Shown: piece after piece, positions 23,572 to 55,777 of the stretch
Layout of the letters: every line of letters starts with the position of its first letter
Numbering within the stretch: position 1 is the stretch's first letter
Source of the DNA: a virus
Lineage: Duplodnaviria > Caudoviricetes
Virus record (IMG/VR): IMGVR_UViG_3300018080_000215
Span: 1-55,777 of that record
DNA: 55,777 nucleotides
Direction: 5' to 3' (one strand)
Position numbers and translations under genes: made by a program
The notes under the pieces: generated by a model
Told to the model about the DNA's origin: nothing
What the model saw: the letters and a program-made list of their open reading frames with translations, nothing else
The model's database searches: none

Positions 23572-23699
23572 AGATCACCTCCCTTCATTCGGATGCGTCG
23601 GTTTCCCGACTAAGGACGTTGCTCTCTTTGTATATGGGCGCAAAGCACCGCCCCGGGTTACTCGCGACAGGGGCGAAGCGAGGCCCGGGGCCAGTGCCG

Positions 23700-23906: not shown

Positions 23907-24127
23907 TTATGCCGGATAGGGGCTTTGGGGTGCGGTATGTCCCACATGGGATTCCCCATTACCCGAATCTCGCAGGAGTCGATATGCACAACCCGGCCAT
24001 CGGAGAAGGTGTGTACTAACCACACTGTATTGATAGATGGGCCGTAATCTATCAAAAACAGCGCATGGCCTTCCCCCAGTGGGGTTTGCACCCACAGCGG
24101 AGGCTCGATCCGGTGGATTTGCGTCAT
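23903..24127 (-). CDS. Conserved small phage protein
   Basis: PLWV.TPLGEG.A.FLIDYG...N.VW pattern; ATGA couplings. Confidence 0.7.
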   Translation of the reverse strand: MTQIHRIEPPLWVQTPLGEGHALFLIDYGPSINTVWLVHTFSDGRVVHIDSCEIRVMGNPMWDIPHPKAPIRHK

Positions 24128-24435
24128 CGCTTCCTGGCCTCCAGGGACTTCAACTTGGCTTTGAGGGCGACAATCTGATCTTGGTAGTCCTGCACCACTG
24201 CCTTGAGCCGCTCTACCTCCAGCCCATTTCCGATAGCCTCGGCAGCCAAATCCCGCCGCACCTCCTGAAACGCATCCCGAAACTGGCTTAGTCGCCGAAT
24301 GCAGTTCGCCGCCCGAGCCAGCGTATCCGCATCCTCCTGCAACACAGGGCAGAGAGCCTCCAGCCGCCGGATGACCTCTTCATCCGACATAGCCCCATCC
24401 TTGTCGGCCTTCTTCTTTCGTCTGACAATCATCAA
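24124..24435 (-). CDS. Coiled-coil hypothetical protein
   Basis: First gene of the leftward block; GAGG RBS. Confidence 0.6.
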   Translation of the reverse strand: MMIVRRKKKADKDGAMSDEEVIRRLEALCPVLQEDADTLARAANCIRRLSQFRDAFQEVRRDLAAEAIGNGLEVERLKAVVQDYQDQIVALKAKLKSLEARKR

Positions 24436-24824
24436 ATATCCCTCTTTGATTAGGTGTCCTGCCGTCGAGTTAGGTAGACACCTTCAGTACAACCCCGATG
24501 TCAAGACCGGCCCTTGACCAAAGTTGTCCAGAGAGAAGCCCAAACTCGGCGAAAACGTCAGACAGAAGGGAGATAAGGTTCGGCTAACCTACGTTCGTTA
24601 CTCAGCAGGGGGTGTTAGGGCAGGGGTCTGCAAAACTGGAAAAAATCCAGGAGGGGAACGTCATATATGTTGCGACCGACTCGGGGGCCGGGAGGGGCTT
24701 GCCGCGCATCCCCTGGCTATGCTAGGGGTTCGGAGTATGCCGATGGTTCCCTCCGCCTCCGGCGGCTCGCGCAGCCGCCCGACCGAGTGCCGTTCCCCCC
24801 CTCCCCCCACAGAATCCATTCTCC

Positions 24825-24952
24825 CGGGGCTTTGCCCCGTCCGGAGTATCCCGATACCCCCCCGGGGCTTTGCCCCGCAGAACGGCTCTCCGGGGCTTTG
24901 CCCCGATTGCCCGATTCTGGCATCATCCCCCCTCGCGGGGCTTCGCCCCGCG
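24825..24952. repeat. Four palindromic repeats CGGGGC-TT(T/C)-GCCCCG
   Basis: Copies at 24825-24839, 24863-24877, 24891-24905 and 24936-24950. Confidence 0.9.
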
Positions 24953-24959
24953 CGCGCAT

Positions 24960-24997
24960 AAAAAAACCCCCGGAGTCCGAAGACTCCGGGGGTTTTC
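24960..24997 (-). terminator. Intrinsic terminator (probably bidirectional)
   Basis: Minus strand CCCCCGGAGTC-TTCG-GACTCCGGGGG-TTTTTTT; T-run on the plus side too. Confidence 0.85.
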
Positions 24998-25022
24998 GCG
25001 TTACCGGGAACCGGGCGTAGAC

Positions 25023-25412
25023 TCAGGATTCCTGAGTCCACTCGCTGTTCCCGGGCTTTCCGGCCTTGGCCGGAGGCTCCATAACCATGCCATTCTCGGC
25101 GGCATGGCGAAGATCATCGGCATGATCGGCAGACTGACGGTATTCGAGAATACCGGCCCAACGATTGCCGTATTCACCGTTGCCGTCCCTTCGATTCTTC
25201 GAAGGGATGAAGTTGGTTTTCTCAATGAGAAAACCCGCCTGGGTAACGGTGTAGTCGATGTACTGTCCATCGGCCAGAACCCGGCGGAAGTGATAGCCGT
25301 ACTGATCCCGCTTGATGTACCGTCCCGGGGCGAGATCGGAGGAACCGATCTTCGCAACGGACTGCGACTTGAAGCGGTTTGCAGGAACGGCGGTAGTCTT
25401 CGACTTTGCCAT
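25023..25412 (-). CDS. Early hypothetical protein
   Basis: AAAGGA RBS, start MAKSKT; downstream of hairpin element 1. Confidence 0.7.
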   Translation of the reverse strand: MAKSKTTAVPANRFKSQSVAKIGSSDLAPGRYIKRDQYGYHFRRVLADGQYIDYTVTQAGFLIEKTNFIPSKNRRDGNGEYGNRWAGILEYRQSADHADDLRHAAENGMVMEPPAKAGKPGNSEWTQES

Positions 25413-25486
25413 GATGAAAAAGTCCTTTCGCCCTATGGGCAAACGGGGAAGTGTGATGCGGTCGGCGACGTTGCCGAACCGCTCCG

Positions 25487-25520
25487 AAAGGCCATCGCTG
25501 CTGGCCCCCTTCGGGGGCTA
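25487..25520 (-). promoter_or_regulatory. Hairpin-AGCGATGG element 1
   Basis: Sense: GCCCCC-GAA-GGGGGC CAGC AGCGATGGCCTTT. Confidence 0.8.
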
Positions 25521-25760
25521 ACGCGAAGTACGCGGTGATTCGGTAGTCTCACCGGGTTGGGACGGGGTTTCGACCGTATCGGGCCGAAAGACGAAATGGG
25601 GCATCATCGAGAGATAGCCCAGTGAGACTATGTCAGAAGTCTTCAAGTCTGCGATGAACTGGAGCAACTCCGTATCCTTCACAGTCTCCTGCTGGAGATG
25701 GTCGGACTCACCATCATTGGTGACATAGTTCACATTCCAATACTTCACAATCATCTGCAA
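25518..25760 (-). CDS. Early hypothetical protein
   Basis: AGAAAGGGG RBS; TAG abuts element 1. Confidence 0.6.
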   Translation of the reverse strand: MQMIVKYWNVNYVTNDGESDHLQQETVKDTELLQFIADLKTSDIVSLGYLSMMPHFVFRPDTVETPSQPGETTESPRTSR

Positions 25761-25775
25761 ATACCCCTTTCTGGG

Positions 25776-25991
25776 TTAGAAGTGCTTGTTGATTCGGGTC
25801 ATGATTGCCAGGACTCTCTCGCAAATATCCCGGTGATTGCGAGCCTTATCGAAGTCTTGAGCATCGCAGGCTTCGCTCGCAAGGTTCTGCTGATGGTCGA
25901 TATACATGAGCAGAGCAGCGGAGACTTCGACAGCCTCCTTGAGCATGAGGGGGATATTCGCAGTACGGGTGACATATGGTTTCGGAGTCAT
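25776..25991 (-). CDS. Early hypothetical protein
   Basis: AGAAAGGG RBS; follows element 2. Confidence 0.65.
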   Translation of the reverse strand: MTPKPYVTRTANIPLMLKEAVEVSAALLMYIDHQQNLASEACDAQDFDKARNHRDICERVLAIMTRINKHF

Positions 25992-26038
25992 GGAAGTACC
26001 CTTTCTGGGTTACGGGGAGTGATTGCCGAAGCGGCTCG

Positions 26039-26074
26039 AAAGGCCATCGCTGCTGGCCCTCCTACGGAGGGCTA
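26039..26074 (-). promoter_or_regulatory. Hairpin-AGCGATGG element 2
   Basis: Sense: GCCCTCC-GTA-GGAGGGC CAGC AGCGATGGCCTTT. Confidence 0.8.
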
Positions 26075-26083
26075 AAGAATCAA

Positions 26084-26119
26084 CAATCCCCGGGGAGTTG
26101 CGATACTCCCCGGGGATTG
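26084..26119 (-). terminator. 15-bp perfect stem-loop, probable terminator
   Basis: CAATCCCCGGGGAGT-TGCGAT-ACTCCCCGGGGATTG just after the TAA at 26125. Confidence 0.65.
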
Positions 26120-26124
26120 GAGGG

Positions 26125-26364
26125 TTACGACACTGTGGTGTTCTGACGAGCCGCAATGAGGTTCGCCAGTTGCCGAAGTTCTTGGTCAGTCAGAACCCGG
26201 GGTGAAATATCCCGGAAAGACTTGACCCGACCCTTGGAGAATCGGCGTTGCCGCTTGTTGAGTTGACTGATGAGTTGGTCAACTTCGACAGGTGACAGGA
26301 AGTTCTCTGGCCGAATAGGGGTATTCGGCTTGGAAACGACGGACTCGGAGAAACTATGAGCCAT
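26125..26364 (-). CDS. Early hypothetical basic protein
   Basis: AGAAAGG RBS, start MAHSFS. Confidence 0.6.
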   Translation of the reverse strand: MAHSFSESVVSKPNTPIRPENFLSPVEVDQLISQLNKRQRRFSKGRVKSFRDISPRVLTDQELRQLANLIAARQNTTVS

Positions 26365-26395
26365 TGGAAAGACCTTTCTTGATTGGGAGGTTGTG

Positions 26396-26617
26396 TCAGT
26401 CGGTGAAAGCATCGTCGGGAATCGAATCATCGGGATAACCCTCGGGATACTCGTCGATGGGGTCATAGTTGTCCTCATCGGCGGCATCATCGAGAGCCTC
26501 GGCAGCCTCGGCATACCAATCCTCCCGCTCCTCATCAGTCATCCCCAACTCATCGACTTCGCAGCAGTCATCGTCGAAGTCTCGGAACTCATCGTCACTC
26601 ATCGAATGAATGCTCAT
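26396..26617 (-). CDS. Very acidic 73-aa protein (DNA-mimic candidate)
   Basis: MSIHSMSDDEFRDFDDD... D/E-dominated with spaced aromatics; GGAG RBS; follows element 3. Confidence 0.65.
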   Translation of the reverse strand: MSIHSMSDDEFRDFDDDCCEVDELGMTDEEREDWYAEAAEALDDAADEDNYDPIDEYPEGYPDDSIPDDAFTD

Positions 26618-26672
26618 TGCATTACTCCGCAACAAAGGAAAATGCCATTTCGCTACTGGGAAACGGCTGTCC

Positions 26673-26708
26673 AAAGAGCCATCGCTGCTGCCGCCCCTTC
26701 GGGGCGGT
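26673..26708 (-). promoter_or_regulatory. Hairpin-AGCGATGG element 3
   Basis: Sense: CCGCCCC-GAA-GGGGCGG CAGC AGCGATGGCTCTTT. Confidence 0.8.
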
Positions 26709-26760
26709 CGCGCGATGTATGAAAGAGACTGAGAAACCCAGCGGTTACGACGGGTTCCGA

Positions 26761-27111
26761 TCAGTACCCCCAAGAACAACCCAGTACGACAGGCTTGTTA
26801 GCCCGACGAGCCTGTCGCAACATGGATTCAGTACCGCGACCACCGGGAAACAACACAACGAAATCGCAATACTCGGCCATTTTGCGATTACGAATCGGGC
26901 CAGCGGCGCGGCCATGAGTCTTCCAATCGGCAGGGAATACGGTGATTGGCAGACCCATAGACTTGGCGAAGTCTTCGCCGCCTTTGTCAGCACCGGTAGC
27001 CCCGCCAGACACAATCTCGGTGACTTCGCGAGACAGGCACAACTGTCGAAGAAAACGGCGGTCTGCATCGGTTAGCGAGTAATGGCGACCACCGGCAATA
27101 ACGAGTTTCAT
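26761..27111 (-). CDS. SLOG-superfamily (YspA/DUF2493-like) protein
   Basis: KLVIAGGR...IVSGGATGAD...FPADW..HGRAAGPIRN..M....FPGGRGT..M signature. Confidence 0.9.
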   Translation of the reverse strand: MKLVIAGGRHYSLTDADRRFLRQLCLSREVTEIVSGGATGADKGGEDFAKSMGLPITVFPADWKTHGRAAGPIRNRKMAEYCDFVVLFPGGRGTESMLRQARRANKPVVLGCSWGY

Positions 27112-27164
27112 GACAACCTCAAAAGGGTAAGTGGGTATGGCAACCCGAAAATGGGTCTGCCAAC

Positions 27165-27197
27165 AAGCCATCGCTCCTGCCGCCCCTTCGGGGCGGT
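27165..27197 (-). promoter_or_regulatory. Hairpin-AGCGATGG element 4
   Basis: Sense: CCGCCCC-GAA-GGGGCGG CAGG AGCGATGGCTT. Confidence 0.8.
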
Positions 27198-27334
27198 AAA
27201 AGACTAGAAGACTTGAGTCTCCAATCCCCGTAATGCCGCAGGGTTACGACATCAACGACTACTGCTGTGCAATATCTGTGTTTCGATAAAACGCAGAGTT
27301 TCGATGGGTTACGAGAGACTTAGAAGACTTCTTG

Positions 27335-27367
27335 AGCCGCCGAAGGCGGCTTTGCAGCGATGGGCTT
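27335..27367 (+). promoter_or_regulatory. Hairpin-AGCGATGG element 5
   Basis: AGCCGCC-GAA-GGCGGCT TTGC AGCGATGGGCTT. Confidence 0.8.
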
Positions 27368-27419
27368 CTGGCGGCGACCGCTGCCCTTCGTTCCCCGTCC
27401 ATTTCCCCAGGAGAATCCC

Positions 27420-27857
27420 ATGAGTCAGTTCGCAACAACGACTACCGGCAACAAGCCTGTTGTCTACGGGTTTGATGCGAGATTGCAGCAGTATTTCCTC
27501 GACATTGATATGTGTCCCCTAGTCGGGCCGTTGGCAGATACTTACGGGTCTGCTGCTAACTTCATCAAGAAGTGCATGATGTTCGCCGTGATGCTGCCCA
27601 ATCGGCATATCAGCGAAGTCTCTGGCGACCTTGTCTTCAGTCGCCTAACTGAAGAGGAGGCTGCCGATAAGCACCACATTGTCCCGACTGATCCGGCAGT
27701 CAAAGTGGTTGATATGGATTCAGGCCAGACTGCCTACCCGAGTCACACCGAGTTGCTAGAGAAGGCTGTTGAACTGTCCCCTAATGCCACCATTCGGCAA
27801 GACGGCGACGGTCAAATCGTCATCTACACCAACCTTGCTTATTACGAGGGGGACTGA
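27420..27857 (+). CDS. Early hypothetical protein
   Basis: AGGAG RBS; VYGFD..LQQYFL motif. Confidence 0.7.
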   Translation: MSQFATTTTGNKPVVYGFDARLQQYFLDIDMCPLVGPLADTYGSAANFIKKCMMFAVMLPNRHISEVSGDLVFSRLTEEEAADKHHIVPTDPAVKVVDMDSGQTAYPSHTELLEKAVELSPNATIRQDGDGQIVIYTNLAYYEGD

Positions 27858-28081
27858 TGGCAGGACTAATCAACTCTTTCAACTATCGAGACGGTATGTC
27901 TCAACAGTGCAGTGAGGCTATTCGCCTGCTTCGCCGTGAAGGCTGGGCAGTTGCAGTAGTCAGGCCCGAGGTTGTCGGTACTCCCCACAATCGCGGTCGA
28001 ATCGAGAAAAGCATGGTTATGGAGGGTGTTCGCCGAGCATCCGAACTGAAACACATGAACTACGGAGGTTTGCGACAGTGA
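27857..28081 (+). CDS. Hypothetical protein
   Basis: TGATG coupling, GAGGGG RBS. Confidence 0.65.
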   Translation: MAGLINSFNYRDGMSQQCSEAIRLLRREGWAVAVVRPEVVGTPHNRGRIEKSMVMEGVRRASELKHMNYGGLRQ

Positions 28082-28290
28082 CGAAATACCGAGTCATGCG
28101 AAAGCGGGCTTACTGGGTCAAAGAGATTGTGGAGATCGACGCTGACTCATTCGAGCAAGCAGAAGAACTGTTTTTTGACAACTTCGATCCTGAACTGGTG
28201 ATCGAGGGAGTATTCGATTTTCATGGACAAAGGTTTGAGACACCTATGGAAGTAAAGGTCATATCAACCAAAGAAGGAGGTGAGTCATGA
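28078..28290 (+). CDS. Hypothetical protein (YRV...VEIDADS.E.AE type)
   Basis: GGAGG RBS, GTGA coupling. Confidence 0.65.
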   Translation: MTKYRVMRKRAYWVKEIVEIDADSFEQAEELFFDNFDPELVIEGVFDFHGQRFETPMEVKVISTKEGGES

Positions 28291-28618
28291 CACATACCCC
28301 TGGCCCCTGGCATCAACATACCCAACACCCAGAGCGAATCATTCTCAATGGTTCCGCTGGATATGAGGTTCATCATGCTTGGGATGAGAACCTCGGCCCT
28401 AACCCCGCTGATGTCCGACTGATGGCAGCAGCACCGGAGTTACTGGCTGCCCTGAAGGCACTCGTCAATCACTGCGTCAGAAACATCAATGTCGATGTGC
28501 GGACTTATGCAAGTATCCTCGCTGCTGCTGACCGGGCGATCTACCAAGCAGAATGGGGTAGTCCGCAAAAAGAACCAGCAGAAGGAGGTGAGTCATGACA
28601 CATACTCCTGGCCCCTGG
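28272..28618 (+). repeat. 39-bp direct repeat spanning RBS and start (28272-28310, 28580-28618), one mismatch
   Basis: AGAAGGAGGTGAGTCATGACACATAC(C/T)CCTGGCCCCTGG. Confidence 0.9.
28287..28598 (+). CDS. HTPGPW...AAAPELL family phage protein, copy 1
   Basis: MTHTPGPW and LMAAAPELLAAL motifs; strong RBS. Confidence 0.8.
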   Translation: MTHTPGPWHQHTQHPERIILNGSAGYEVHHAWDENLGPNPADVRLMAAAPELLAALKALVNHCVRNINVDVRTYASILAAADRAIYQAEWGSPQKEPAEGGES

Positions 28619-28993
28619 TTTGTTGCCAGCAATCATGACGATGGTGGAGTCTTGTCTGACTTCGGTCGAATGAGGGATTCCCAAAACGACGAAGCAGAGT
28701 GCATTCTTGGTGGTGGTGACGATTATCAATCGCCATGCAAGAACACCCCTCCCGGGCCTCGGGTTATCTGTTGGACACAGATGAACGAGACTCCAGAGGG
28801 TGGTGACGCGATCACTGATGAGGATAGGGCGAATGCCAATCTGATTGCGGCAGCACCGGAGTTACTGGCTGCATCTAAGTGCGCACTGGCTGACTTGATG
28901 GGGATGTCGGACTTAGTAGAAGAAGGTCATCCTTGCTTTGCGACTATCGAAGAACTCCAAGCCGCCATAGTCAAGGCAGAAGGGAGGGAGTGA
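28595..28993 (+). CDS. HTPGPW...AAAPELL family phage protein, copy 2
   Basis: MTHTPGPW, ANANLIAAAPELLAA and AAIVKAEG motifs. Confidence 0.8.
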   Translation: MTHTPGPWFVASNHDDGGVLSDFGRMRDSQNDEAECILGGGDDYQSPCKNTPPGPRVICWTQMNETPEGGDAITDEDRANANLIAAAPELLAASKCALADLMGMSDLVEEGHPCFATIEELQAAIVKAEGRE

Positions 28994-29244
28994 TGATAAA
29001 GCCTTTTACTTACACTTGCATTCGGATTGCAGACTTTTGTGAACACAACGGACTCGACCTTGACGAGGTACTGTGGGAGATTTCGGAGTGTGATGTGGCG
29101 TCGTTTGGCGACAACTACGACACCCTAATCACAATACCCCAGTTAGAGAGTGTGCTTCAGGATATTCTCGACGAGGATGGCCTCAAGGCTCTCGACTACG
29201 GAGTCAAGGACATCCTGACTACTCGCATTAGTCTGGGGTCTTGA
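28993..29244 (+). CDS. Acidic hypothetical protein
   Basis: GGAGG RBS, TGATG coupling. Confidence 0.6.
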   Translation: MIKPFTYTCIRIADFCEHNGLDLDEVLWEISECDVASFGDNYDTLITIPQLESVLQDILDEDGLKALDYGVKDILTTRISLGS

Positions 29245-29245
29245 T

Positions 29246-29500
29246 ATGAGTTGGGCTGACCAATGCAAGTATTCCAAGCCGTTAGTGGAACACCTCTGTA
29301 TGTATTGCAAGTCTGAGATGGACTTCGACAGAGTGATGTTTCTACAGGAGACAGGCAGACCTTGTGTGTGTCTGTCATGCTCCGAAGAATCACCCAAGTT
29401 GACCCTCATGGAATATGGTCACAAGACTGCCGGGTATCTGGTGGTTGTTGGCAAGGGTGATGAGGATAAGGCGATTCGTTGTTATCGCCGAAGTAGATGA
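29246..29500 (+). CDS. Small zinc-finger protein (DksA/TraR C4-like spacing)
   Basis: CxxC...R..........CxxC then HKTAG motif. Confidence 0.55.
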   Translation: MSWADQCKYSKPLVEHLCMYCKSEMDFDRVMFLQETGRPCVCLSCSEESPKLTLMEYGHKTAGYLVVVGKGDEDKAIRCYRRSR

Positions 29501-29509
29501 GTCTGGCTA

Positions 29510-29544
29510 ACGCCCCGAAGGGGCGTCTGTAGCGATGGCTTTTT
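29510..29544 (+). promoter_or_regulatory. Hairpin-AGCGATGG element 6
   Basis: ACGCCCC-GAA-GGGGCGT CTGT AGCGATGGCTTTTT. Confidence 0.8.
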
Positions 29545-29602
29545 GCAGCGGCTTCGACGCCGCAGTTTTCTGTTTTTCCCCTTTTGAAAGAGAGGTTTGT
29601 CG

Positions 29603-30034
29603 ATGGCTAAGAGTCGTGCCGAAGTGTTGGAGAGTCTGAAAGGCATCTTCAGTGGTAAGGAAAGCCCCAAGAAGGGAGGTCAACGTCCCGCTAAGGATGC
29701 GTTTCCTCGGCCCAAGTCTTCTGTTGTCGCTGTTGATGACGAGGAAGAGGAGGACGAAGACGAGTTGGAGGAGTCCGAAGTCGAAGATGAAGAGGAGGAA
29801 GCCGAGGATTCGGAAGACACCGAAGCCGAAGCCGAGGACTACGAGTCTGATGATGATGACTCCGACGATCTCGATGATGACCAGTACGAGGAGGAGGAAG
29901 AGGACGAGGAGGAAGAGGACGTTGATACGTCACCTGTCGAAGACCTTCTCGACCGCGTCGAGTCTCTTCTGGACTTTGTTGCGGAGCATCATGCCGCACT
30001 GAAGTCCTACCTCGATCATCTCAAGGTGAGTTGA
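29603..30034 (+). CDS. Protein with basic N-terminus and long D/E tract
   Basis: GAGG RBS; central region almost entirely Asp/Glu. Confidence 0.75.
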   Translation: MAKSRAEVLESLKGIFSGKESPKKGGQRPAKDAFPRPKSSVVAVDDEEEEDEDELEESEVEDEEEEAEDSEDTEAEAEDYESDDDDSDDLDDDQYEEEEEDEEEEDVDTSPVEDLLDRVESLLDFVAEHHAALKSYLDHLKVS

Positions 30035-30050
30035 TCGACAATCGTTCAGT

Positions 30051-30098
30051 AGCCCCCCCGATTGCCCTTGTTTTCAAGGCTTTCGGGGGGGCTTTTCT
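30051..30098 (+). terminator. Intrinsic terminator
   Basis: AGCCCCCCCGA...TCGGGGGGGCT-TTTCT after the acidic gene. Confidence 0.7.
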
Positions 30099-30178
30099 AT
30101 TGCTGCTCTTGACATGGGGTTCACCTTGAAGGGTGAGCCTTTTTCTTTGCCCATTCACCCCGTTTATGAGGTTTCCAA

Positions 30179-31087
30179 ATGATTCGTAAGACGATTACCG
30201 ATGACGGTGTTCAGGTCTATTGGGACTCTGCGAAGGCTCCCAGGTCTGTCGTTCGTAAGTCATTCCGGGCCGCTGGCTTCGACAGCCTTGTCCCCCTCTT
30301 CGATCCTGTCGAGTGTCTCAAGCGAGTCGCTCATGACATTGTCGAGGTTGCTGGACTGAAGGTTCGCGGCCAGCCTATCGAGCCGAAGCAGTTGCGCCGC
30401 GATGTTGTCGGTGTTACTGCTGTTCGGGAGATCAAGGGAGCGAAGCGTAACGACTATCGCAACCTGTTCTCTATCGGCTGCACTGGCACCAACGCCGAGG
30501 ACTTCGAGGTTCGGTTCTTCGACGTTGACCCCGTCGAGGCTCCCGATATTGCCAAGAACTTGCAGGCTACCGAGCAGGCTGCCAAGTCTTTGTGGTCTGG
30601 GCACAAGGATTGGATGCCTGCCCAGGACATCACCTCTGCTATCCGAGGACTGTTGTTTCGACTGCATGGCACCATGCTGAAGAAGTCCGGTGGTGTTTAC
30701 TTCCTGCCGGAAGAACATCTCCAGACTTTCGAGAAGGTTGTCAGTCCTATCGAACAGTCTGAGTCCGAGTTGTGTGTGACCACTTGTTCGTTCGACATTC
30801 AGGCCAATCAGCGCATGTTCGACCGACTGCTGGCTGCCCTGGAAGCGGAAATCTTGGAGCAGACTTCCAAGATGAACGAGGACATTGCGAATATGTCCGA
30901 CAAGTCGAAGAAGATGCGGCGTAACGGCATCGAACGGCGGCTCTCTGACATCTGCCGCTGGACTGACAAGGTCGAGTATTACGAGAAGTTGATGGGTACA
31001 ACGATGCCCAAACTTCGCGAGGCGATTGACACTGCCCAGTATGCCATCGGTGTGCATGGTCTTGTCTCAATGGGGGCTAACTCTTGA
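30179..31087 (+). CDS. Partner protein of the MoxR/vWA module (DUF6744-like)
   Basis: SGGVYFLP motif and YYEKLMG C-terminal helix; directly upstream of AAA+ and vWA genes. Confidence 0.65.
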   Translation: MIRKTITDDGVQVYWDSAKAPRSVVRKSFRAAGFDSLVPLFDPVECLKRVAHDIVEVAGLKVRGQPIEPKQLRRDVVGVTAVREIKGAKRNDYRNLFSIGCTGTNAEDFEVRFFDVDPVEAPDIAKNLQATEQAAKSLWSGHKDWMPAQDITSAIRGLLFRLHGTMLKKSGGVYFLPEEHLQTFEKVVSPIEQSESELCVTTCSFDIQANQRMFDRLLAALEAEILEQTSKMNEDIANMSDKSKKMRRNGIERRLSDICRWTDKVEYYEKLMGTTMPKLREAIDTAQYAIGVHGLVSMGANS

Positions 31088-31095
31088 GTCTCCCA

Positions 31096-31131
31096 ACCGT
31101 CCTTACGGACGGTCAGAAGCGATGGCTTTTT
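31096..31131 (+). promoter_or_regulatory. Hairpin-AGCGATGG element 7 (4-nt loop variant)
   Basis: ACCGTCC-TTAC-GGACGGT CAGA AGCGATGGCTTTTT. Confidence 0.75.
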
Positions 31132-31190
31132 GCCAGCCGACCGGCGAACCGGTACGGCATTTCATTCCTACAACAAAGCGAGGTTCACAA

Positions 31191-32333
31191 ATGGTTACGA
31201 CTGCTGCCCCCCGAAACATTCGGGGTGGCGAAGTTCTCATCCCCAACATGGCATATCACATTGCCATTCAAACCCGAGTCCCGGCCTTGGCCTGGGGTGG
31301 TACTGGTGTTGTCAAGACTCAAGGCAATGCCGCTCTGGCTAAGGCATTGGGGTTCAAGTTCTATCCTCTCATCGGTAGTTGCCATGCCCCCGAAGACTTC
31401 GGCGGTATCCCGTTCCCGGTGTTCAACGAGGGTCACACCGAACTGCTGCCAATGAAGTGGGTTCGCAAGACCCGCGATCCGTATTGGTTCATCTTCATGG
31501 ACGAGGTAACGACCATTCCGATTCAGGTTCGCCCACCGGCTCTTTCAATGTTGAGCGAACGCCGCATTGGTGAGTGTGTTATGCACCCCACCACTATCAT
31601 TTGTGGTGCCACCAATCCCCCGGAGTTGGCTCCCAACGCCGCTCCACTGGAGAAGTCTTTGCTCAATCGCTTCTATCACCACAAGTGGGAGTTCCCTCTT
31701 GCTGAATGGGTGAAGGGTATGCGACAGGGGCAGAACTTCGACGAGCCGAAAGTGACTATCCTCCCCGACAACTGGGAGACTTACATCGGCAAGTGGTCAA
31801 GCCTCGTTGGCAACTTCATTATGTCTCGTCCTGAAATGGCCGAGGAAGATCATTCCAAGTGCGACGATGACCGACTGTCATTCGCATCACCCCGGGCTTG
31901 GTCAAAGGCTGCCCTGTTACTGGCTGGTGCCGAGGCTTGCGATGCTCCGGTCGAAGTCTATGTGCAGTTGTTGTCTGGCATGATTGGTGAGGCGAACGGC
32001 AGTGAGTTCGTTGCTCATCTCCATGCTACTGAACTGTACAGTCCTGACGAGATTCTGAACGGCGACGTTACTGTCGATTGGCAGAAGAGTCGCTTCGATG
32101 TTCTGGCCTGTTTGCCCAGTGCTATCGTCGGGGCAATCAAGAGCGAGAACAGCGACAAGCGTTTCAGTAATGCCGTCAAGTTCTTCGTCGAACTGTGTGA
32201 GCATGAGGCCGACCTTGCACTCTATCCGCTACTGGAACTGATGCCACTGATGCCCGATGGACACCGTCTTGACCAAGATGCTGCGGTCAAGTTCTCCGGT
32301 GTCGTTCGTCAAATGGAACAGGGGGTGAACTGA
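31191..32333 (+). CDS. MoxR-type AAA+ ATPase
   Basis: WGGTGVVKT (variant Walker A), PEDFGGIP, FIFMDE Walker B, ATNPP sensor, LLNRF Arg finger, ASPRAW. Confidence 0.85.
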   Translation: MVTTAAPRNIRGGEVLIPNMAYHIAIQTRVPALAWGGTGVVKTQGNAALAKALGFKFYPLIGSCHAPEDFGGIPFPVFNEGHTELLPMKWVRKTRDPYWFIFMDEVTTIPIQVRPPALSMLSERRIGECVMHPTTIICGATNPPELAPNAAPLEKSLLNRFYHHKWEFPLAEWVKGMRQGQNFDEPKVTILPDNWETYIGKWSSLVGNFIMSRPEMAEEDHSKCDDDRLSFASPRAWSKAALLLAGAEACDAPVEVYVQLLSGMIGEANGSEFVAHLHATELYSPDEILNGDVTVDWQKSRFDVLACLPSAIVGAIKSENSDKRFSNAVKFFVELCEHEADLALYPLLELMPLMPDGHRLDQDAAVKFSGVVRQMEQGVN

Positions 32334-33856
32334 TGGAGAAGATGACAAGAGATCGTCTGATTATCGCCAAGGCTAAGGAGCGATGCCGCCAGTGGATGCC
32401 CTACTTGCGGCGTTTGTTCCTGCCGATGCGTTGTATTGCCAAAGACAACATCCCTACTGCGGCAGTCGATAAGTATTGCCGTATGTATTACAACCCGGGA
32501 TTCGTCAGCAAACTGACTGTCCCGCAGATGGCTTACGTCATTCTGCATGAGGTTCTTCATGTGGTGCTATCACACCACAAGAGAACGGCCAGGATGGCCC
32601 CCAATGCTGACAAGCAAACCCTGTTCCTTGCCAACATCGCTCAAGACCTGTGTATTCAGCAGGCTTTGCAGTCTGACGTTGGCTGCCATGAACCGGAAGA
32701 CATCGTTCGCATTGACCAGTGGACTCATATCGACGGCATCGAGCCGGGTATGACCAGTGAGCAATACTTCTACGCTCTCCGCGAATGGTACGAGAATCGG
32801 GAGGACGGGGAGCCAACAGAAGGCGAAGACGAGTCACCCTCGGAAGACTCCGAAGAAGGCTTAGGTTCTCCCCAAGACTCCGAGTCAGACGGCGATTCGG
32901 AAAATGATTCCGATGGCGATGAAGACTCCGATGGGGATGGTGAGTCATCGGCAGATGACGGTGATGAAGAGTCTGACGAAGACGGCAGCGATGGCGGGCA
33001 GTCTTCGGAAGACGATGATTCCGATAGCGATGCGGAATCGGAGGCGACCGGCAGCGGTCAAGGTGAGTCAGATTCCCAATCGGAAGTAGACACTTCGGGT
33101 ATGCCAGCGATGGGGGATATTTGTAATCCTGCCCATGCTGGTTCCAACTCTGACGGTGAAGAAAAGCCTTGGGAAGACCCGCCGACTCTCGCTGATGTTG
33201 CCAACCAAGAGCGGGCTTTGAGGGAAGTCGAGAAAGACATCGACGAATGTCAGAGTCTCGGGGCTGGTGGCGGCGGGATTCGTCAGTCACTCAAGGCTCG
33301 GCTGCATCCTCTGCCAGACCCGTTCGACGAACTCCGTACTGCTGTTGGTCGGACGCTGGTGGCGGCTGCTGGCGATCCCCGGAAGACCTACCGCAAGTAT
33401 CCCCGTCGCACTCTTCCCGGTGATGGAAGGCTCATGGGCACTGAGCATATCCAGCCGGAAGCGGTGATCTTGCTAGACACCAGTGGTTCTATGGAGTCTA
33501 GCGCAATCAAGGATCGAGCCTTGACGATTGTCGCCAAGGGTATCTCGCGATTGCAGAATCCCCGTATCGTTTGTTGCGACGGGGTGGTGCAGTCTGAGAA
33601 CCGGGTGGCGAATATGTCCCGGTTTACCTGGGACGGCGGTGGCGGCACTGATATGACAGCCGGTCTTCTCTACGTCCAAGAGAAGTACAACCCCGACGCT
33701 ATCGTCATCATCACTGACGGTATCACCCACTGGCCGACCGAAAAGTTACGGGCCAAGGTTATCTGTGCTTTGTGTTGTGGTGCTTGGGCAGAACGAGTGC
33801 CGAAGTGGCTCAAGACTGTGCATCTATATCGGGAGCAACACAAATATGCTCTCTGA
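32333..33856 (+). CDS. Metallopeptidase-like (HExxH) + acidic linker + vWA domain protein
   Basis: PTAAVD..YYNP, LHEVLH, DTSGS MIDAS, GGGGTDM, IITDG. Confidence 0.9.
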   Translation: MEKMTRDRLIIAKAKERCRQWMPYLRRLFLPMRCIAKDNIPTAAVDKYCRMYYNPGFVSKLTVPQMAYVILHEVLHVVLSHHKRTARMAPNADKQTLFLANIAQDLCIQQALQSDVGCHEPEDIVRIDQWTHIDGIEPGMTSEQYFYALREWYENREDGEPTEGEDESPSEDSEEGLGSPQDSESDGDSENDSDGDEDSDGDGESSADDGDEESDEDGSDGGQSSEDDDSDSDAESEATGSGQGESDSQSEVDTSGMPAMGDICNPAHAGSNSDGEEKPWEDPPTLADVANQERALREVEKDIDECQSLGAGGGGIRQSLKARLHPLPDPFDELRTAVGRTLVAAAGDPRKTYRKYPRRTLPGDGRLMGTEHIQPEAVILLDTSGSMESSAIKDRALTIVAKGISRLQNPRIVCCDGVVQSENRVANMSRFTWDGGGGTDMTAGLLYVQEKYNPDAIVIITDGITHWPTEKLRAKVICALCCGAWAERVPKWLKTVHLYREQHKYAL

Positions 33857-33919
33857 AATAATCACTGTCGCTGTACTCATTTACGTCTTTTCAATCTTAC
33901 TCTCTAACGAAACGGGACT

Positions 33920-34993
33920 ATGAACAATCTGTGCAATATGGAATCTTACTACCAACAGTATTGGCGGTGGGGCGATGAAAAGAATTTTCGGCGTTCCCTA
34001 GATAATGCCCATAAAGTGCGGCCTCGATGCGATCTGAATGATTGGACGCTGGCCGATGCTGCTAGGTTTTGGATTGGCAATAACGATGGCCTGTTGGAAT
34101 CTATGGAGACGTTCGACATACCCGATGGGTTTGTTGTTGTTCTTGCTGCCACCATGATTATGCGGAGTTGCGCAGCAGAGCATCATCGCCGTTATGTGGA
34201 TAACGGGGTTCAACACATGTCCTTGGGGAGGCCGCTAGCCAACAATGCGTACTTCCCAGTGTACTGTGAGCGACTTCAACAGGATGCCATTTTATCTGAC
34301 CCGATTTGTAGGAGTCCTGAAGACAACAAGGTGACGCAATCTCACTTTTGCAGGAGTTTGTTTCGGGCTATTACAGAACATGATACTTGTACCCATTTCT
34401 TCTCGATGGATATTCCTACTGCCCGGGAGTATTGCGCAAGAACGCACTGCACTGCCAATGACAGTTCTATGCCCCAATGCGTACCCCAGGTTATGTGGGA
34501 AAAACACCCCGAGTTCTTCACCAGTGAGCGGCTGAACTACCAAGGTGTGTATCACCTCTGGCCCGCATTTCGGTCTGCACTCACCAGCGAACCTCCAACA
34601 ATTTCTATCAAGCGGCAGCGCAGTCACAAACTGGTTCCTGTGGTTCCGAGAATGACTGTCGAAATTCTTGAGTCCTTTCGGATGAACTGTCTTTCCTATG
34701 TCAAGGAAGCCGGGGAGAGATACTTTTTTCGCGAACAGTTGAAAGAGATTATCGGAGCCGTAGGCCAATGTAGGTTGCAGTACCGTTTCATACTGAGTGC
34801 TACTGGCAAGGATGTGCAGATGTACTTGCGTAAATTCGACCTGACTTTCCTGCGTTTGTTGTGTTGGAAGTGGAAAGTAATGAACCCGCTCTGTGATAAC
34901 AACAGCCTTCATTACTGGGGACTTGAGCAAGATCAGTGGTCATCTCTCGCGAAAGACGTTTATTTGTGGGACTCTGAACCCCTTACTTACTGA
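33920..34993 (+). CDS. Hypothetical protein, 357 aa
   Basis: Long ORF, Cys/Trp-rich, no motif recognised. Confidence 0.6.
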   Translation: MNNLCNMESYYQQYWRWGDEKNFRRSLDNAHKVRPRCDLNDWTLADAARFWIGNNDGLLESMETFDIPDGFVVVLAATMIMRSCAAEHHRRYVDNGVQHMSLGRPLANNAYFPVYCERLQQDAILSDPICRSPEDNKVTQSHFCRSLFRAITEHDTCTHFFSMDIPTAREYCARTHCTANDSSMPQCVPQVMWEKHPEFFTSERLNYQGVYHLWPAFRSALTSEPPTISIKRQRSHKLVPVVPRMTVEILESFRMNCLSYVKEAGERYFFREQLKEIIGAVGQCRLQYRFILSATGKDVQMYLRKFDLTFLRLLCWKWKVMNPLCDNNSLHYWGLEQDQWSSLAKDVYLWDSEPLTY

Positions 34994-38582: not shown

Positions 38583-38869
38583 GTGTGCCTTCAATTCTTA
38601 ACCAAGCAGAGATGATGGTGATTGCCTTGAGTGCATACCAAATGTTGTACCGGGGCAGCGAGGACAGGATCGTTGTTGGGCTAACACCGCAGCATTGCAG
38701 CGCAATACGGGCAATGCTTCAGGACGATAACTTCAAGGCAGTCGCACTCGATGCTTGGAATGAAGTATTCGTTGAGAGAGAAGGTGAGTTGTATGACGCT
38801 GTTCGGGCTGCGATGCAGGAGTGCGGTGTTTGGGACTCGTTTCGCGAAGTCTGTGGAGACAAGCGGTGA
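38579..38869 (+). CDS. Hypothetical protein
   Basis: GGAGG RBS, ATGA coupling. Confidence 0.6.
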   Translation: MSVPSILNQAEMMVIALSAYQMLYRGSEDRIVVGLTPQHCSAIRAMLQDDNFKAVALDAWNEVFVEREGELYDAVRAAMQECGVWDSFREVCGDKR

Positions 38870-55767: not shown

Positions 55768-55777
55768 TAGCCTGCGG

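What the first reader, a model, noticed from the sequence alone, without database searches (positions are those of the whole stretch)
25487..31131. Seven bipartite 'mini-hairpin + AGCGATGG' elements head the early gene units: candidate new structure-dependent promoter or cassette system
Seen: seven intergenic copies (25487-25520, 26039-26074, 26673-26708, 27165-27197 on minus; 27335-27367, 29510-29544, 31096-31131 on plus), always oriented with the downstream gene and roughly 50-75 nt before its start. Each is a perfect 6-7 bp GC-rich inverted repeat whose sequence varies but stays paired (GCCCCC, GCCCTCC, CCGCCCC, AGCCGCC, ACGCCCC, ACCGTCC), followed by invariant AGCGATGG and a T-rich run. 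The box starts 11 nt after the loop in six copies and 10 nt in one. Six loops are C-GNA-G triloops (GAA x5, GTA x1). Established: C-GNA-G triloops form exceptionally stable DNA mini-hairpins and are the element read by phage N4 virion RNA polymerase. The true terminator at 24960 uses an RNA-type C(UUCG)G loop instead. Unlike N4, the GNA loop here is on the coding strand, and no RNA polymerase gene is recognisable. Inference: a hairpin-plus-box signal read by an ejected phage protein or by host RNAP to fire early/anti-defence genes. Alternatives are RNA processing sites or cassette recombination sites.
Basis: partly seen in the sequence, partly recalled or inferred. Interest (0 to 1): 0.88.

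Follow-up and report, generated by a model that had tools for sequence, protein, structure and literature searches.

The report
Hairpin-plus-box signals heading phage early genes
An uncultured 56-kb phage places the same two-part DNA signal, a tiny perfectly paired hairpin followed four bases later by a fixed eight-base box, in front of seven early gene units; it is most likely a phage-specific transcription start signal, but the phage has no recognisable RNA polymerase of its own to read it.

Summary
Exactly seven copies of a perfect 6-7 bp GC hairpin, a 4-nt spacer, AGCGATGG and a pyrimidine run lie in the window. All are intergenic, face the next gene, and are followed by a second, unrelated stem-loop.

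New here:
- A 62%-related contig has a copy at the same position with a different stem and box GGCAATGG.
- A distant, complete relative (G001; ATPase 34% identical) has five copies of the same architecture. They share the frame C-N-G-N3-C-N2-TGG.
- In the 13 hairpins, 91 of 91 pairs are Watson-Crick, with no G·T. Five of seven stem positions covary.

One copy follows a strong terminator directly, and two sit back to back at the divergent junction. I therefore read them as promoter cassettes (confidence about 0.5). Geometry resembles N4/LUZ7 hairpin promoters and genomic role resembles T4-type PeSLs, but neither membership test is passed.

No phage RNA polymerase was found. The 1133-aa candidate gave no polymerase match and only weak ejectosome-protein matches. 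Similarity of the small sigma-like gene does not track the elements.

This scan has noted similar hairpin-plus-box signals in other uncultured phages.

The parts
25484..25518 (-). el1. Hairpin 25504-25518 (6 bp, loop GAA), spacer CAGC, box AGCGATGG 25492-25499, pyrimidine run to 25484. Heads gene 25023-25412.
   Evidence: the upstream gene's stop codon TAG abuts the stem
26036..26072 (-). el2. Hairpin 26056-26072 (7 bp, loop GTA), spacer CAGC, box 26044-26051. Heads genes 25776-25991 and 25518-25760.
   Evidence: lies directly after terminator 26084-26119
26671..26707 (-). el3. Hairpin 26691-26707 (7 bp, GAA), spacer CAGC, box 26679-26686. Heads the acidic 73-aa gene 26396-26617 and gene 26125-26364.
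27160..27196 (-). el4. Hairpin 27180-27196 (7 bp, GAA), spacer CAGG, box 27168-27175. First element of the leftward unit; heads the SLOG-domain gene 26761-27111.
27197..27334 (.). Non-coding spacer of about 137 bp between the back-to-back elements el4 and el5. Holds two direct TAGAAGACTT repeats. No sigma-70-like site was found.
27335..27371 (+). el5. Hairpin 27335-27351 (7 bp, GAA), spacer TTGC, box 27356-27363. First element of the rightward unit; heads the small genes from 27420 to 29500.
29510..29546 (+). el6. Hairpin 29510-29526 (7 bp, GAA), spacer CTGT, box 29531-29538. Heads the acidic 143-aa gene 29603-30034.
31096..31133 (+). el7. Hairpin 31096-31113 (7 bp, loop TTAC), spacer CAGA, box 31118-31125. 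Heads the AAA ATPase gene 31191-32333 and the DUF2201/VWA gene. Syntenic copies exist in L028 and G001.
25458..25482 (-). Second stem-loop (hp2) of el1. The other hp2 lie at about 26025-26035(-), 26644-26667(-), 27138-27162(-), 27370-27385(+), 29545-29566(+) and 31136-31158(+). Their sequences are unrelated, and they carry G-U pairs and bulges.
   Evidence: RNA folds (6 G-U among 64 predicted pairs); one search lists two of them as terminator-like
26084..26119 (-). Intrinsic-terminator-like hairpin (15 pairs followed by a T-rich tail) between the el3 unit and el2.
24963..24996 (.). 15-bp-stem hairpin flanked by A and T runs. It closes the leftward early unit.
30051..30097 (+). Long-loop GC hairpin followed by TTTT, after the el6 gene. 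Terminator-like by eye only. The next gene (30179-31087) has no element but has a CTTGACAT motif.
   Evidence: the scan tool did not call it

Best explanation
The seven elements are phage-specific promoter cassettes. Each is one DNA-level signal made of two parts:
- a 7-bp GC hairpin, in which only the closing C-G pair, the pairing and the purine-rich triloop on the coding strand are kept;
- four bases further on, a recognition frame C-N-G-N3-C-N2-TGG (here YWGN-AGCGATGG) followed by a pyrimidine run.

Inferred: transcription starts in or just after this frame. Two placements are possible. One is at the A/G of the box, 13-14 nt from the hairpin centre as in LUZ7. The other is 6-8 nt past the box, which would put the second stem-loop at the 5' end of each mRNA as a stabiliser.

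No phage polymerase is found in this phage or in the complete relative that carries the same kind of signal. The enzyme is therefore most likely the host RNA polymerase, guided by an unidentified specificity factor.

Shown: anatomy, covariation, fixed spacing, conservation in relatives, and position at unit heads and after a terminator.
Inferred: promoter function, DNA-level action, start site and reader.
For: (1) Seven of seven copies are intergenic and oriented with the next gene. el4 and el5 sit back to back around a 137-bp spacer. el2 begins 9 nt after a terminator with a 15-bp stem and T tail. An RNA element that depends on upstream transcription would be cut off there.

(2) The stem-to-box spacer is 4 nt in 8 of 8 group-A copies, although the stems differ (7 distinct stems) and the spacer letters vary.

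(3) Relatives:
- L028 (ATPase 62% identical) has a copy at the same site with a different 8-bp stem and box GGCAATGG.
- G001 (complete, direct terminal repeats, ATPase 34% identical) has exactly 5 copies: a 7-bp hairpin, then CGGG, then NYCTGTGG. All lie 55-65 nt before a start codon, and the last stands before the ATPase gene.
- Aligned, all 13 copies share C1, G3, C7 and T10-G11-G12 after the stem.

(4) Covariation on the 10 copies that align in register:
- 70 of 70 cells are paired; 5 of 7 pairs change on both sides; no pair changes on one side only.
- The covariation score is 0.781 against 0.146 in shuffles, and 0 of 500 shuffles reach it.
- Slid registers pair 36-60% of cells.
- Over all 13 hairpins, cognate arms pair 91 of 91 and non-cognate arms 574 of 998.

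(5) Hairpin 1 has 0 G·T among 91 pairs. The second stem-loops have 6 G-U among 64 predicted pairs, plus bulges. This fits hairpin 1 acting as DNA and hp2 acting as RNA.

(6) A third group of relatives carries a repeated box TGGGGTGCCGGGAGG plus hp2 before several early genes, in places right after a terminator-like hairpin. Group-specific boxes at unit heads are what phage-specific promoters look like.

(7) Sigma-70-like sites: 0 found against 5.3 expected in 24-34 kb, and 13 against about 24 over the 50 kb scanned. None scores above 9 of 12.

(8) The geometry matches mapped hairpin promoters. N4 has 5-7 bp stems, 3-nt loops, and conserved plus merely paired stem bases (PMC4496689, passages). 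LUZ7 starts at a G 13-14 nt from the hairpin centre, and its middle promoters have stems of 6 bp or more with 3-4 nt loops (PMC9163698, passages).
Against: - No transcript data of any kind were available, so no start site is shown.
- No reader was identified.
  - PF00940 is absent from G000-G003, but the control rang nowhere, so sensitivity is unproven.
  - There were no Pfam, PHROG or PDB hits for the large unknown ORFs.
  - 5% of the genome is missing, and the window ends cut two ORFs.
- The box matches no known sigma consensus that I could compare. Those comparisons were made by eye from recalled consensus sequences, not by a call.
- The GNA loop is on the coding strand in 10 of 11 triloops (the eleventh is AAA). 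This is the opposite of N4 and is equally what an RNA hairpin in a sense transcript would show.
- The absence of G·T could merely reflect the need for stability in a 7-bp stem.
- Gene 30179, which follows a terminator-like hairpin, has no element, so other promoter types must exist.
- Relatives G002 and the G005 contig have the sigma-like gene at 65-71% identity. G002 has no hairpin-plus-box family in its whole record. In G005 only the 14.7-kb locus L057 was looked at, and it has none.
- The copies within each phage are paralogues, so covariation counts overstate independent events.
Confidence: 0.5

Rival explanations
1. A two-function cassette of the PeSL kind. The box is an unconventional promoter for the host polymerase. 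Hairpin 1 acts separately, in RNA or DNA, as an attenuator, insulator or 3'-end protector for the unit upstream, and as a patch of homology for gene shuffling.
For: - PeSLs of T4-type phages are repeated promoter-plus-GC-stem-loop cassettes between small early ORFans of hyperplastic regions (PMC2839356, abstract and passages).
- Here the elements are confined to 5.7 kb of small ORFs without homologues in G001 or G002.
- Strains differ in gene content in this region.
- The group-C relatives have a box without hairpin 1, sometimes with a true terminator in its place.
Against: - The hairpin-to-box distance is fixed (4 nt in 8 of 8; 5 of 5 in G001). In PeSLs the stem-loop sits at five different places relative to the promoter.
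- No U tract follows hairpin 1, so it is not an intrinsic terminator.
- There is no sigma-70 consensus.
- The loop and the closing pair are conserved and strand-specific.
- The resolved deletion 27400-27854 ends outside the elements.
Confidence: 0.2
2. An RNA-level leader element. Transcripts start further upstream, and hairpin 1 plus the box is bound or cut in the RNA. Cutting between the two stem-loops would give stable mRNAs; alternatively the site could serve nut-like antitermination or translational control.
For: - The conserved GAA/GTA loops are on the sense strand in 10 of 11 triloops.
- In RNA folds the box lies mostly single-stranded between two stem-loops.
- The run GCUCUUU / GCUUUUU after the box recalls boxA of nut and rrn antiterminators (recalled, not tested).
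- el1 abuts the upstream stop codon, so it is surely transcribed by read-through.
Against: - el2 follows a strong terminator directly.
- el4 and el5 would each need a separate promoter inside 137 bp, where none is recognisable. In G001 the first element sits at the edge of the divergent region.
- Seven sites, one per unit, is unlike nut sites, of which phages have two (recalled).
- Hairpin 1 has 0 G-U among 91 pairs, against 6 among 64 in hp2.
- There is no Rfam match.
- Only 2-3 of the 8 hp2 look like terminators.
Confidence: 0.17
3. N4-style promoters read by an unrecognised phage-encoded or ejected polymerase, either lying in the missing 5% of the genome or having a fold that sequence searches cannot see.
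For: - Hairpin size, the 3-nt GNA loop, the mix of conserved and merely paired stem bases, and the distance to a G all resemble N4 and LUZ7.
- The window ends cut two large minus-strand ORFs.
- Several ORFs of 280-580 aa have no annotation.
Against: - The GNA loop is on the non-template strand.
- There was no PF00940 match, and no catalytic-motif match in ORFs of 250 aa or more in G000, G001 (100% complete) or G002.
- The 1133-aa protein gave a confident model with no polymerase match; its best long alignment is to a T7-like ejectosome protein.
- The cut ORFs are low-complexity and show no polymerase motif, and no longer homologue of the 949-aa piece was found.
- No large protein is shared by G000 and G001 alone.
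Confidence: 0.08
4. Site-specific recombination or cassette-capture sites (integron-attC-like, or invertase sites for the serine recombinase at 38821-39660).
For: - The elements are folded palindromes at cassette borders.
- A resolvase-family gene is present.
- Gene content varies between strains.
Against: - The elements occur in both orientations and always face a gene.
- The palindromic part is variable in sequence, so it is a poor protein recognition site.
- The resolved indel has both ends outside the elements.
- The recombinase is also present in G002, which lacks the elements.
Confidence: 0.03

Closest known systems
Early promoters P1-P3 of coliphage N4, and early and middle promoters of Pseudomonas phage LUZ7 (Schitoviridae), read by the injected virion RNAP or by RNAPII
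   Same: - Small GC hairpin of 5-7 bp with a 3-nt (sometimes 4-nt) loop of the GNA type.
- Some stem bases are conserved and the others only need to pair.
- A conserved single-stranded stretch lies downstream.
- A G lies 11-14 nt from the hairpin centre, where LUZ7 starts transcription.
   Different: - The GNA loop lies on the coding strand, not the template strand.
- An 8-nt invariant box follows, instead of an A tract.
- No T7-like or any other phage polymerase was found in this phage or in its complete relative G001.
- The genome is 56 kb and shows no other N4-like gene.
PeSL (promoter-early stem-loop) cassettes of T4-type phages RB49 and phi1
   Same: - Repeated composite of a promoter-like sequence and a GC-rich stem-loop.
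- Placed between small, poorly conserved early genes.
- Confined to a plastic region of the genome.
   Different: - PeSL promoters are sigma-70 consensus promoters with AT-rich upstream regions.
- Their stem-loops tolerate G-T pairs and sit at varying positions.
- Here the box is unlike any sigma-70 element, the spacing is rigid, the pairing is perfect, and the loop is strand-specific.
Single-element promoters of phage-encoded sigma factors (phiEco32 gp36: tAATGTAtA, start 6-8 bp downstream)
   Same: - A phage with a small sigma-like gene.
- One short conserved element and no -35 element.
   Different: - Similarity of the sigma-like gene does not track presence of the element.
- Another motif, CCATATACA (three times on the minus strand before gene blocks), resembles the phiEco32 element more.
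- Those promoters serve middle and late genes and have no hairpin.

Membership tests
N4-type hairpin promoters | Hairpin with a 5-7 bp stem and a 3-nt loop just upstream of the start site | tested here: met
   6-7 bp perfect stems. The loop is 3 nt in 6 of 7 copies and 4 nt in 1.
N4-type hairpin promoters | Stem has conserved bases near the loop; the remaining bases are free as long as they pair | tested here: met
   In the window and L028 the two loop-proximal pairs are C-G in 8 of 8 copies, and positions 3-7 vary with compensation. On the 10 aligned copies, including G001, two pairs never vary and five change on both sides.
N4-type hairpin promoters | The stable purine-centred (GNA-type) loop is on the template strand | tested here: not met
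   GAA or GTA is on the coding strand in 6 of 7 copies, so the template strand reads TTC or TAC. N4 has G(-10) G(-11) A(-12) on the template strand.
N4-type hairpin promoters | The phage encodes and injects a T7-like virion RNA polymerase | tested here: inconclusive
   - No PF00940 match in G000-G003, but the control rang nowhere.
- No Pfam, PHROG or PDB hit for the large ORFs.
- The 1133-aa model gave no polymerase match.
- 5% of the genome is missing.
N4-type hairpin promoters | Transcription starts at a fixed distance downstream of the hairpin; dependence on gyrase and SSB | not testable with these tools
   No RNA run is listed and no host is known.
PeSL cassettes (T4-type) | Repeated promoter-plus-stem-loop cassettes between small early ORFans of a plastic region | tested here: met
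   - Seven copies lie in 5.7 kb of small ORFs.
- Of the ORFs from 25023 to 30034, only one (29246-29500) has a homologue in G001, and none has one in G002.
- Gene content varies between strains.
PeSL cassettes (T4-type) | The promoter part is a sigma-70 -35/-10 consensus with an AT-rich upstream region | tested here: not met
   0 sigma-70-like sites in 24000-34000, against 5.3 expected. The box AGCGATGG is unlike either hexamer.
PeSL cassettes (T4-type) | Stem-loop at variable position relative to the promoter, G-T pairs allowed, acts as terminator | tested here: not met
   The spacing is fixed at 4 nt. There are 0 G·T among 91 pairs. No T run follows the stem. Terminator activity itself cannot be tested here.
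Promoters of the phage's own sigma factor | Element and sigma factor occur and change together among relatives | tested here: not met
   - Sigma-like gene 65% identical in G002 and G003, and 71% in the G005 contig. G002 has no hairpin-plus-box family in its whole record, and L057 has none in its 14.7 kb.
- G001, with the sigma-like gene only 31% identical, has the family.
nut-type antitermination sites (boxA/boxB) | Site transcribed from an upstream promoter; few sites per genome; RNA hairpin bound by a phage protein | tested here: inconclusive
   Seven sites, one of them directly after a terminator, and no G-U pairs argue against. No RNA or protein-binding data exist. The nut features are recalled from memory.
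Rfam RNA families | Match to a curated covariance model | tested here: not met
   0 matches at gathering score in the whole window. In 25350-31250 there are only 3 chance-level matches, none on an element.
Integron attC / recombination sites | Sites at the 3' end of cassettes in one orientation, with a cognate integrase; cassette borders at the sites | tested here: not met
   Both orientations occur and the elements sit at the heads of genes. The only recombinase is a resolvase-family gene that G002 also has, and G002 lacks the elements. The indel ends lie outside the elements.

The most novel reading that the evidence does not exclude
Structure-dependent 'hairpin-plus-box' promoters are not a peculiarity of N4-like phages and their injected polymerase. 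A separate lineage of about 55-65 kb phages, without any phage polymerase, uses a mini-hairpin on the non-template strand, fixed 4 nt from a C-N-G-N3-C-N2-TGG frame, to recruit the host's multisubunit RNA polymerase. Recruitment might work through a fork-junction-like structure made by cruciform extrusion, or through an unknown small phage factor. The result would be to fire early and anti-defence cassettes.
Probability: 0.25. Interest if true: 0.8.

Novelty: new variant of a known kind. Interest (0 to 1): 0.62.

Why it matters
If these are promoters, they would be the first hairpin-dependent start signals outside phages that bring their own polymerase. That would mean a cellular RNA polymerase, or a small unknown factor, can be directed by an extruded DNA hairpin.

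They would also give a compact, portable and easily recognised marker of early and anti-defence gene cassettes in uncultured phages. This scan has noted similar signals in crAss-like and other phages, so the principle may be general.

The eight plus five natural variants amount to a ready-made mutational series for reporter and in vitro tests: stems, loops GAA / GTA / AAA / TTAC / TAAC, and three box versions.

Tried and rejected
- **RNA evidence.** The look-up of sequencing runs listed no RNA holder, so expression could not be tested.
- **Strain variation.** Read laying on DNA contigs of 4 metagenomes showed strain variants. Only 40 of 283 single-base differences were printed. None of the 40 lies in an element, so conservation of the elements among strains could not be judged. 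Contigs often end at the elements, which I put down to assembly at repeats or palindromes.
- **Close relatives.** The contigs of the 18 ATPase homologues at 60-69% identity (P0002-P0019) could therefore not be fetched. Only L028 and L029 were reachable through the metagenome scan.
- **Pattern scans of viral contigs** gave only chance matches, apart from G001's own record.
- **A longer form of the cut 949-aa ORF:** none found.
- **Fold searches of the 1133-aa model.**
  - Foldseek found nothing at E of 0.001 or below.
  - In VIA-align the best Z was 6.0, on a 69-residue piece. The only long alignment (212 residues, Z 5.2) is to a PhiM1 ejectosome protein.
  - No polymerase appeared. For a 1133-residue helical model this is weak evidence.
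- **Sigma-54, ECF, sigma-28 and Bacteroidota-type readings of the box.** I compared these by eye with recalled consensus sequences. Spacing or key bases did not fit. No tool tested this.
- **The box as a start codon.** Its ATG is in frame with the next gene in el4, el5 and el7. I rejected the idea because G001's box has no ATG and every gene has its own Shine-Dalgarno sequence and ATG.
- **Relatives without the family.**
  - Group-D relatives: I found no repeated hairpin-plus-box in the whole G002 record or in loci L024 and L022.
  - L057: none in the 14.7-kb locus.
- **The 84-aa Cys-rich protein** shared only by G000 and G001: no family and no informative Atlas neighbour.
- **Literature.** Full-text searches found 'hairpin promoter' with phage only in N4 papers. 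That makes three searches, not an exhaustive survey. Supplementary files were not consulted.
- **Papers and what I saw of them.** Passages through 'find' for PMC4496689, PMC9163698, PMC2839356 (with abstract) and PMC8948821 (with part of the abstract). Only the listing's abstract start for PMC13037366.
- **Unused allowances:** the second structure job and the third homologue search.

Full report
**What the window is.** The window is a whole IMG/VR virus record of 55,777 bp, classed linear and about 95% complete. No DNA-level relative exists among deposited phages beyond a low-complexity acidic stretch.

Gene content:
- A long minus-strand structural block runs from 24435 to 1, with the portal at 12732-14825 and the major head protein at 18090-19235.
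- A leftward block of six small genes lies at 27111-25023.
- A rightward block starts at 27420. It holds small ORFs, an acidic protein, a DUF6744 protein, an AAA ATPase, a DUF2201/VWA protein and a resolvase-family recombinase.
- A further minus-strand block covers 55776-39657. It holds low-complexity and 1133-aa virion-type proteins, a PD-(D/E)XK nuclease, ERF, a helicase, HNH and a small sigma-like protein.
- There is no tRNA and no Rfam family.

**The observation.** AGCGATGG occurs 13 times, against 2.57 expected; 0 of 100 shuffles reach 13. Exactly seven of these carry a perfect hairpin that ends 4 nt upstream. Among all other exact and one-mismatch boxes, no perfect hairpin of 6 bp or more sits at that spacing.

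All are intergenic and point toward the next gene. Details:
- Stems are 6 bp in one copy and 7 bp in six.
- Loops are GAA in five copies, GTA in one and TTAC in one.
- Spacers read CAGC (three times), CAGG, TTGC, CTGT and CAGA. The third base is always G.
- A pyrimidine run ending in G follows the box. Then come a second stem-loop of unrelated sequence, a C/T-rich tract, a Shine-Dalgarno sequence and ATG.
- The box start lies 60-87 nt from the start codon.
- As single-stranded DNA the hairpins fold at -6.8 to -9.2 kcal/mol, z -2.4 to -4.4.

The one refinement is that the constant quantity is the distance from the stem base to the box (4 nt), not the distance from the loop to the box (10-12 nt).

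**Transcription-unit context.**
- el4 and el5 are back to back, with their boxes pointing outward, around 137 bp of non-coding DNA. That DNA holds no sigma-70-like site.
- el2 starts 9 nt after a terminator-like hairpin of 15 pairs with a T-rich tail (26119-26084).
- The leftward block ends at a 15-bp-stem hairpin flanked by A and T runs (24963-24996).
- After the el6 gene lies another GC hairpin followed by TTTT (by eye).

An element that works only in RNA made from further upstream would be useless behind the 26119 terminator. A promoter there makes sense.

Sigma-70-type consensus sites are at or below chance throughout: 0 against 5.3, 9 against 8.7, and 4 against 10.1 expected in the three stretches scanned. 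None is better than 9 of 12.

**Relatives.** Scans with an ATPase alignment gave one close contig and many distant ones.

L028 (62% identity) has an 8-bp hairpin of different sequence with loop GAA at the same site, between the DUF6744 and ATPase genes. It is followed by a 4-nt spacer, GGCAATGG, a T-rich run and a second stem-loop.

The important find is G001. This 64,362-bp record has 127-bp terminal repeats and is rated 100% complete; its ATPase is 34% identical. It carries exactly five elements of the same build on one strand:
- Each has a 7-bp perfect hairpin. There are three distinct stems, and the loops are GAA (three times), AAA and TAAC.
- CGGG, then N-Y-CTGTGG and T follow the stem directly.
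- All lie 55-65 nt before a start codon.
- The first sits at the edge of a divergent non-coding region and the last stands before the ATPase gene.

Laid side by side, all 13 elements share C at position 1, G at 3, C at 7 and TGG at 10-12 after the stem. They are therefore one family with a common frame and lineage-specific filling.

A third group (L023, L034-L041, L044) has a repeated box TGGGGTGCCGGGAGG plus second stem-loop before several early genes. It has no hairpin 1, and in places the box follows a terminator-like hairpin directly.

A fourth group (G002, G003) shows no such repeat family. For G002 the whole record was examined; for L057 (G005) only the 14.7-kb locus.

**Covariation.** Ten copies align in register. 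el1, el7 and L028 were left out because their stem or loop lengths put MAFFT out of register.
- 70 of 70 cells are standard pairs.
- 5 of 7 pairs change on both sides, in 19 cells. None changes on one side only.
- The covariation score is 0.781, against 0.146 ± 0.058 in shuffles; 0 of 500 shuffles reach it.
- Registers slid by 1-3 columns pair only 36-60% of cells.

Counting all 13 from the loop outward, cognate arms pair 91 of 91 and non-cognate arms 574 of 998. The copies within a phage are paralogues, so these are not independent events. Even so, nine distinct stems with perfect pairing cannot be inheritance alone.

Hairpin 1 has no G·T pair at all. The predicted second stem-loops have 6 G-U among 64 pairs, and bulges in several copies. 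A hypergeometric estimate that I made by hand gives about 0.004, with the caveat that the hp2 pairs come from a predictor that allows G-U. This contrast is my main reason to place hairpin 1 at the DNA level and hp2 at the RNA level.

**Who reads it?** I looked for a polymerase and found none.
- The ten largest ORFs have no polymerase family in Pfam or PHROGs.
- The three largest unknown ORFs have no PDB relative by sequence.
- The two ORFs cut by the window ends are low-complexity, charged proteins without polymerase motifs. No longer form of the 949-aa piece exists in the protein collection.
- The 1133-aa ORF belongs to a very large family (2,573 representatives at E of 0.001 or below). With 36 sequences it gives a confident, mostly helical model (pLDDT 84.6, pTM 0.86). 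Foldseek finds nothing significant, and its weak rows include T7 and E1004 core proteins. In the VIA-align search the only long alignment is to a PhiM1 ejectosome protein (Z 5.2, 212 residues). I read it as an ejection protein, not a polymerase.
- PF00940 is absent from G000, G001, G002 and G003, but that search's control rang nowhere.
- Recalled catalytic motifs are absent from ORFs of 250 aa or more in G000 and G001. G002 has a single FGDTD match, in a 713-aa ORF that I took by recall to be a DNA polymerase.

A phyletic comparison shows that nothing large is shared by the two element-bearing phages alone. Only three small proteins are: an 84-aa Cys-rich protein, a LexA-type winged-helix protein, and a 101-aa ORF.

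The sigma-like gene at 39657-40184 rests on three weak hits: Sigma70_r2 at E 1.9e-4, a PHROG sigma factor at 1.5e-4, and ECF SigE in the PDB at E 0.38. It is conserved in all relatives, but its similarity does not follow the elements. It is 65-71% identical in G002, G003 and G005, where I saw no such family, and 31% identical in G001, which has it.

A different motif, CCATATACA, stands three times on the minus strand before gene blocks. It resembles the single-element promoter tAATGTAtA of the phiEco32 sigma factor (PMC8948821), so it is the better candidate for this sigma factor.

By elimination, the host polymerase with an unknown specificity factor is the most likely reader.

**Comparison with known systems.**
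- *N4.* N4 early promoters are hairpins of 5-7 bp with a 3-nt loop centred at -11. Some stem bases are conserved and the rest only need to pair. [quoted passage not shown]
- *LUZ7.* Early promoters start at a G 13-14 nt from the hairpin centre. Middle promoters have GC stems of 6 bp or more, with 3-4 nt loops, about 15 bp before the start (PMC9163698).
- *Fit with the elements here.* The A and G that open the box are 13 and 14 nt from the hairpin centre, and the invariant spacer G is 11 nt away. The logic of conserved loop-proximal pairs plus freely covarying distal pairs is the same.
- *What fails.* N4 has its G-N-A loop on the template strand. Here 10 of 11 triloops have it on the coding strand, the eleventh is AAA, and the two tetraloops read GNNA on the template strand. 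The defining polymerase is also missing. The element works like an N4 promoter in geometry, but I do not file it as one.
- *PeSL.* The genomic role matches the PeSL cassettes of T4-type phages: a promoter plus GC stem-loop between plastic early ORFans (PMC2839356). A lead from earlier notes of this scan sent me to that paper. But PeSL promoters are sigma-70 consensus promoters, and their stem-loops sit at variable positions and tolerate G-T pairs.
- *Mini-hairpins.* GCGNAGC and GCGNNAGC DNA mini-hairpins are described as extraordinarily stable (PMC13037366, listing abstract only).

**Plasticity.** DNA contigs from four metagenomes cover the region with variants. One run replaces 27400-27854, the first gene behind el5, by 22 other bases. 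Several contigs leave the reference near 28961-28996. The genes behind the elements have no homologues in G001 or G002, except the 84-aa protein, DUF6744 and the ATPase. Variable genes behind conserved heads is thus supported. The one resolved breakpoint pair lies in the leader and at the gene end, not in the elements.

**Verdict.**
- The feature is real, non-random, structure-constrained and conserved in architecture across phages whose shared proteins are only about 30-35% identical.
- It is most likely a promoter cassette acting as DNA (0.5).
- The main alternatives are a two-function PeSL-like cassette (0.2) and an RNA leader element (0.17).
- A hidden phage polymerase is unlikely (0.08).
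- Start sites, reader and host are unknown, and everything about function is inference.
- This scan has already noted similar hairpin-plus-box signals in crAss-like and other uncultured phages. Those notes are unchecked and are not evidence here, but they suggest the principle is widespread.

Noticed in passing
window 24620-24690 (-); G001 about 56960-57010 (+); G002 about 28690-28740 (+): A single-copy non-coding block containing TGGATTTTTTCC is conserved in all three phages. Its flanks are similar too (C-rich, then ..TTTG..). It lies next to the early region and upstream of the structural-gene block. It may be a major promoter, an origin or a packaging signal.
   Followed up: partly
window 24800-24952: Four CGGGGC-(T/A)3-GCCCCG triloop palindromes and G/C runs lie in a 590-bp stretch without ORFs, between the early terminator and the late genes. 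They are the same kind of mini-hairpin but have no AGCGATGG box.
   Followed up: no
window 23629-23637, 42662-42670, 45155-45163 (-): CCATATACA occurs three times, all on the minus strand just before gene blocks, and once each in G001 and G002. It resembles the phiEco32 sigma-factor promoter element tAATGTAtA, so it is a candidate promoter for the phage sigma-like protein at 39657-40184.
   Followed up: partly
window 24498-24505 (-) and 30108-30115 (+): Two intergenic CTTGACAT motifs are each followed by GGGGTT...TGAAGG(G)TG. One stands before the first late gene, the other before the DUF6744 gene that lacks a hairpin-plus-box element. This may be a second promoter class. CTTGACAT itself is not enriched (36 against 42 expected with one mismatch).
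   Followed up: partly
window 50447-53848 (-): This 1133-aa protein belongs to a very large family without annotation (2,573 representatives). The AlphaFold model is confident (pLDDT 84.6) and mostly helical, with no clear match in the PDB. Weak similarity to ejectosome and core proteins of T7-like phages is all that appears.
   Followed up: yes
window 27400-27854 and 28961-28996: One metagenome's contigs replace the first gene behind el5 by 22 bases. Contigs of three runs diverge from the reference around 28961-28996. The early region therefore differs in gene content between strains.
   Followed up: partly
window 26008-27313 and 27205/27321: GGTTACG occurs 13 times against 3.8 expected, and five copies are clustered on the + strand in 1.3 kb around the divergent junction. 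TAGAAGACTT occurs as an exact direct repeat just inside el4 and el5. No function is assigned.
   Followed up: no
window 27169-27171, 27360-27362, 31122-31124: The ATG inside the box is in frame with the downstream gene, without a stop, in el4 and el5 (20 codons upstream) and in el7 (23 codons). I judged this coincidental, because G001's box has no ATG.
   Followed up: yes
window 29246-29500 (+): An 84-aa Cys-rich (zinc-ribbon-like) protein is the only small early-region protein shared with the element-bearing relative G001 (54% identity over 56 residues). It is absent from G002. It has no family assignment.
   Followed up: partly
loci L023, L034-L041, L044: A related phage group, one record of which is classed as a provirus, repeats the 15-nt box TGGGGTGCCGGGAGG plus a stem-loop before several early genes. 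One copy stands at the ATPase site, where the letters before the box happen to spell AGCGATGG.
   Followed up: partly
window 1-2848 and 54721-55777: Both ends of the record cut minus-strand ORFs that encode low-complexity, charged or Q/A-rich proteins. The frames do not join directly, so sequence is missing between them. Another assembly of the same phage is 58.9 kb.
   Followed up: partly
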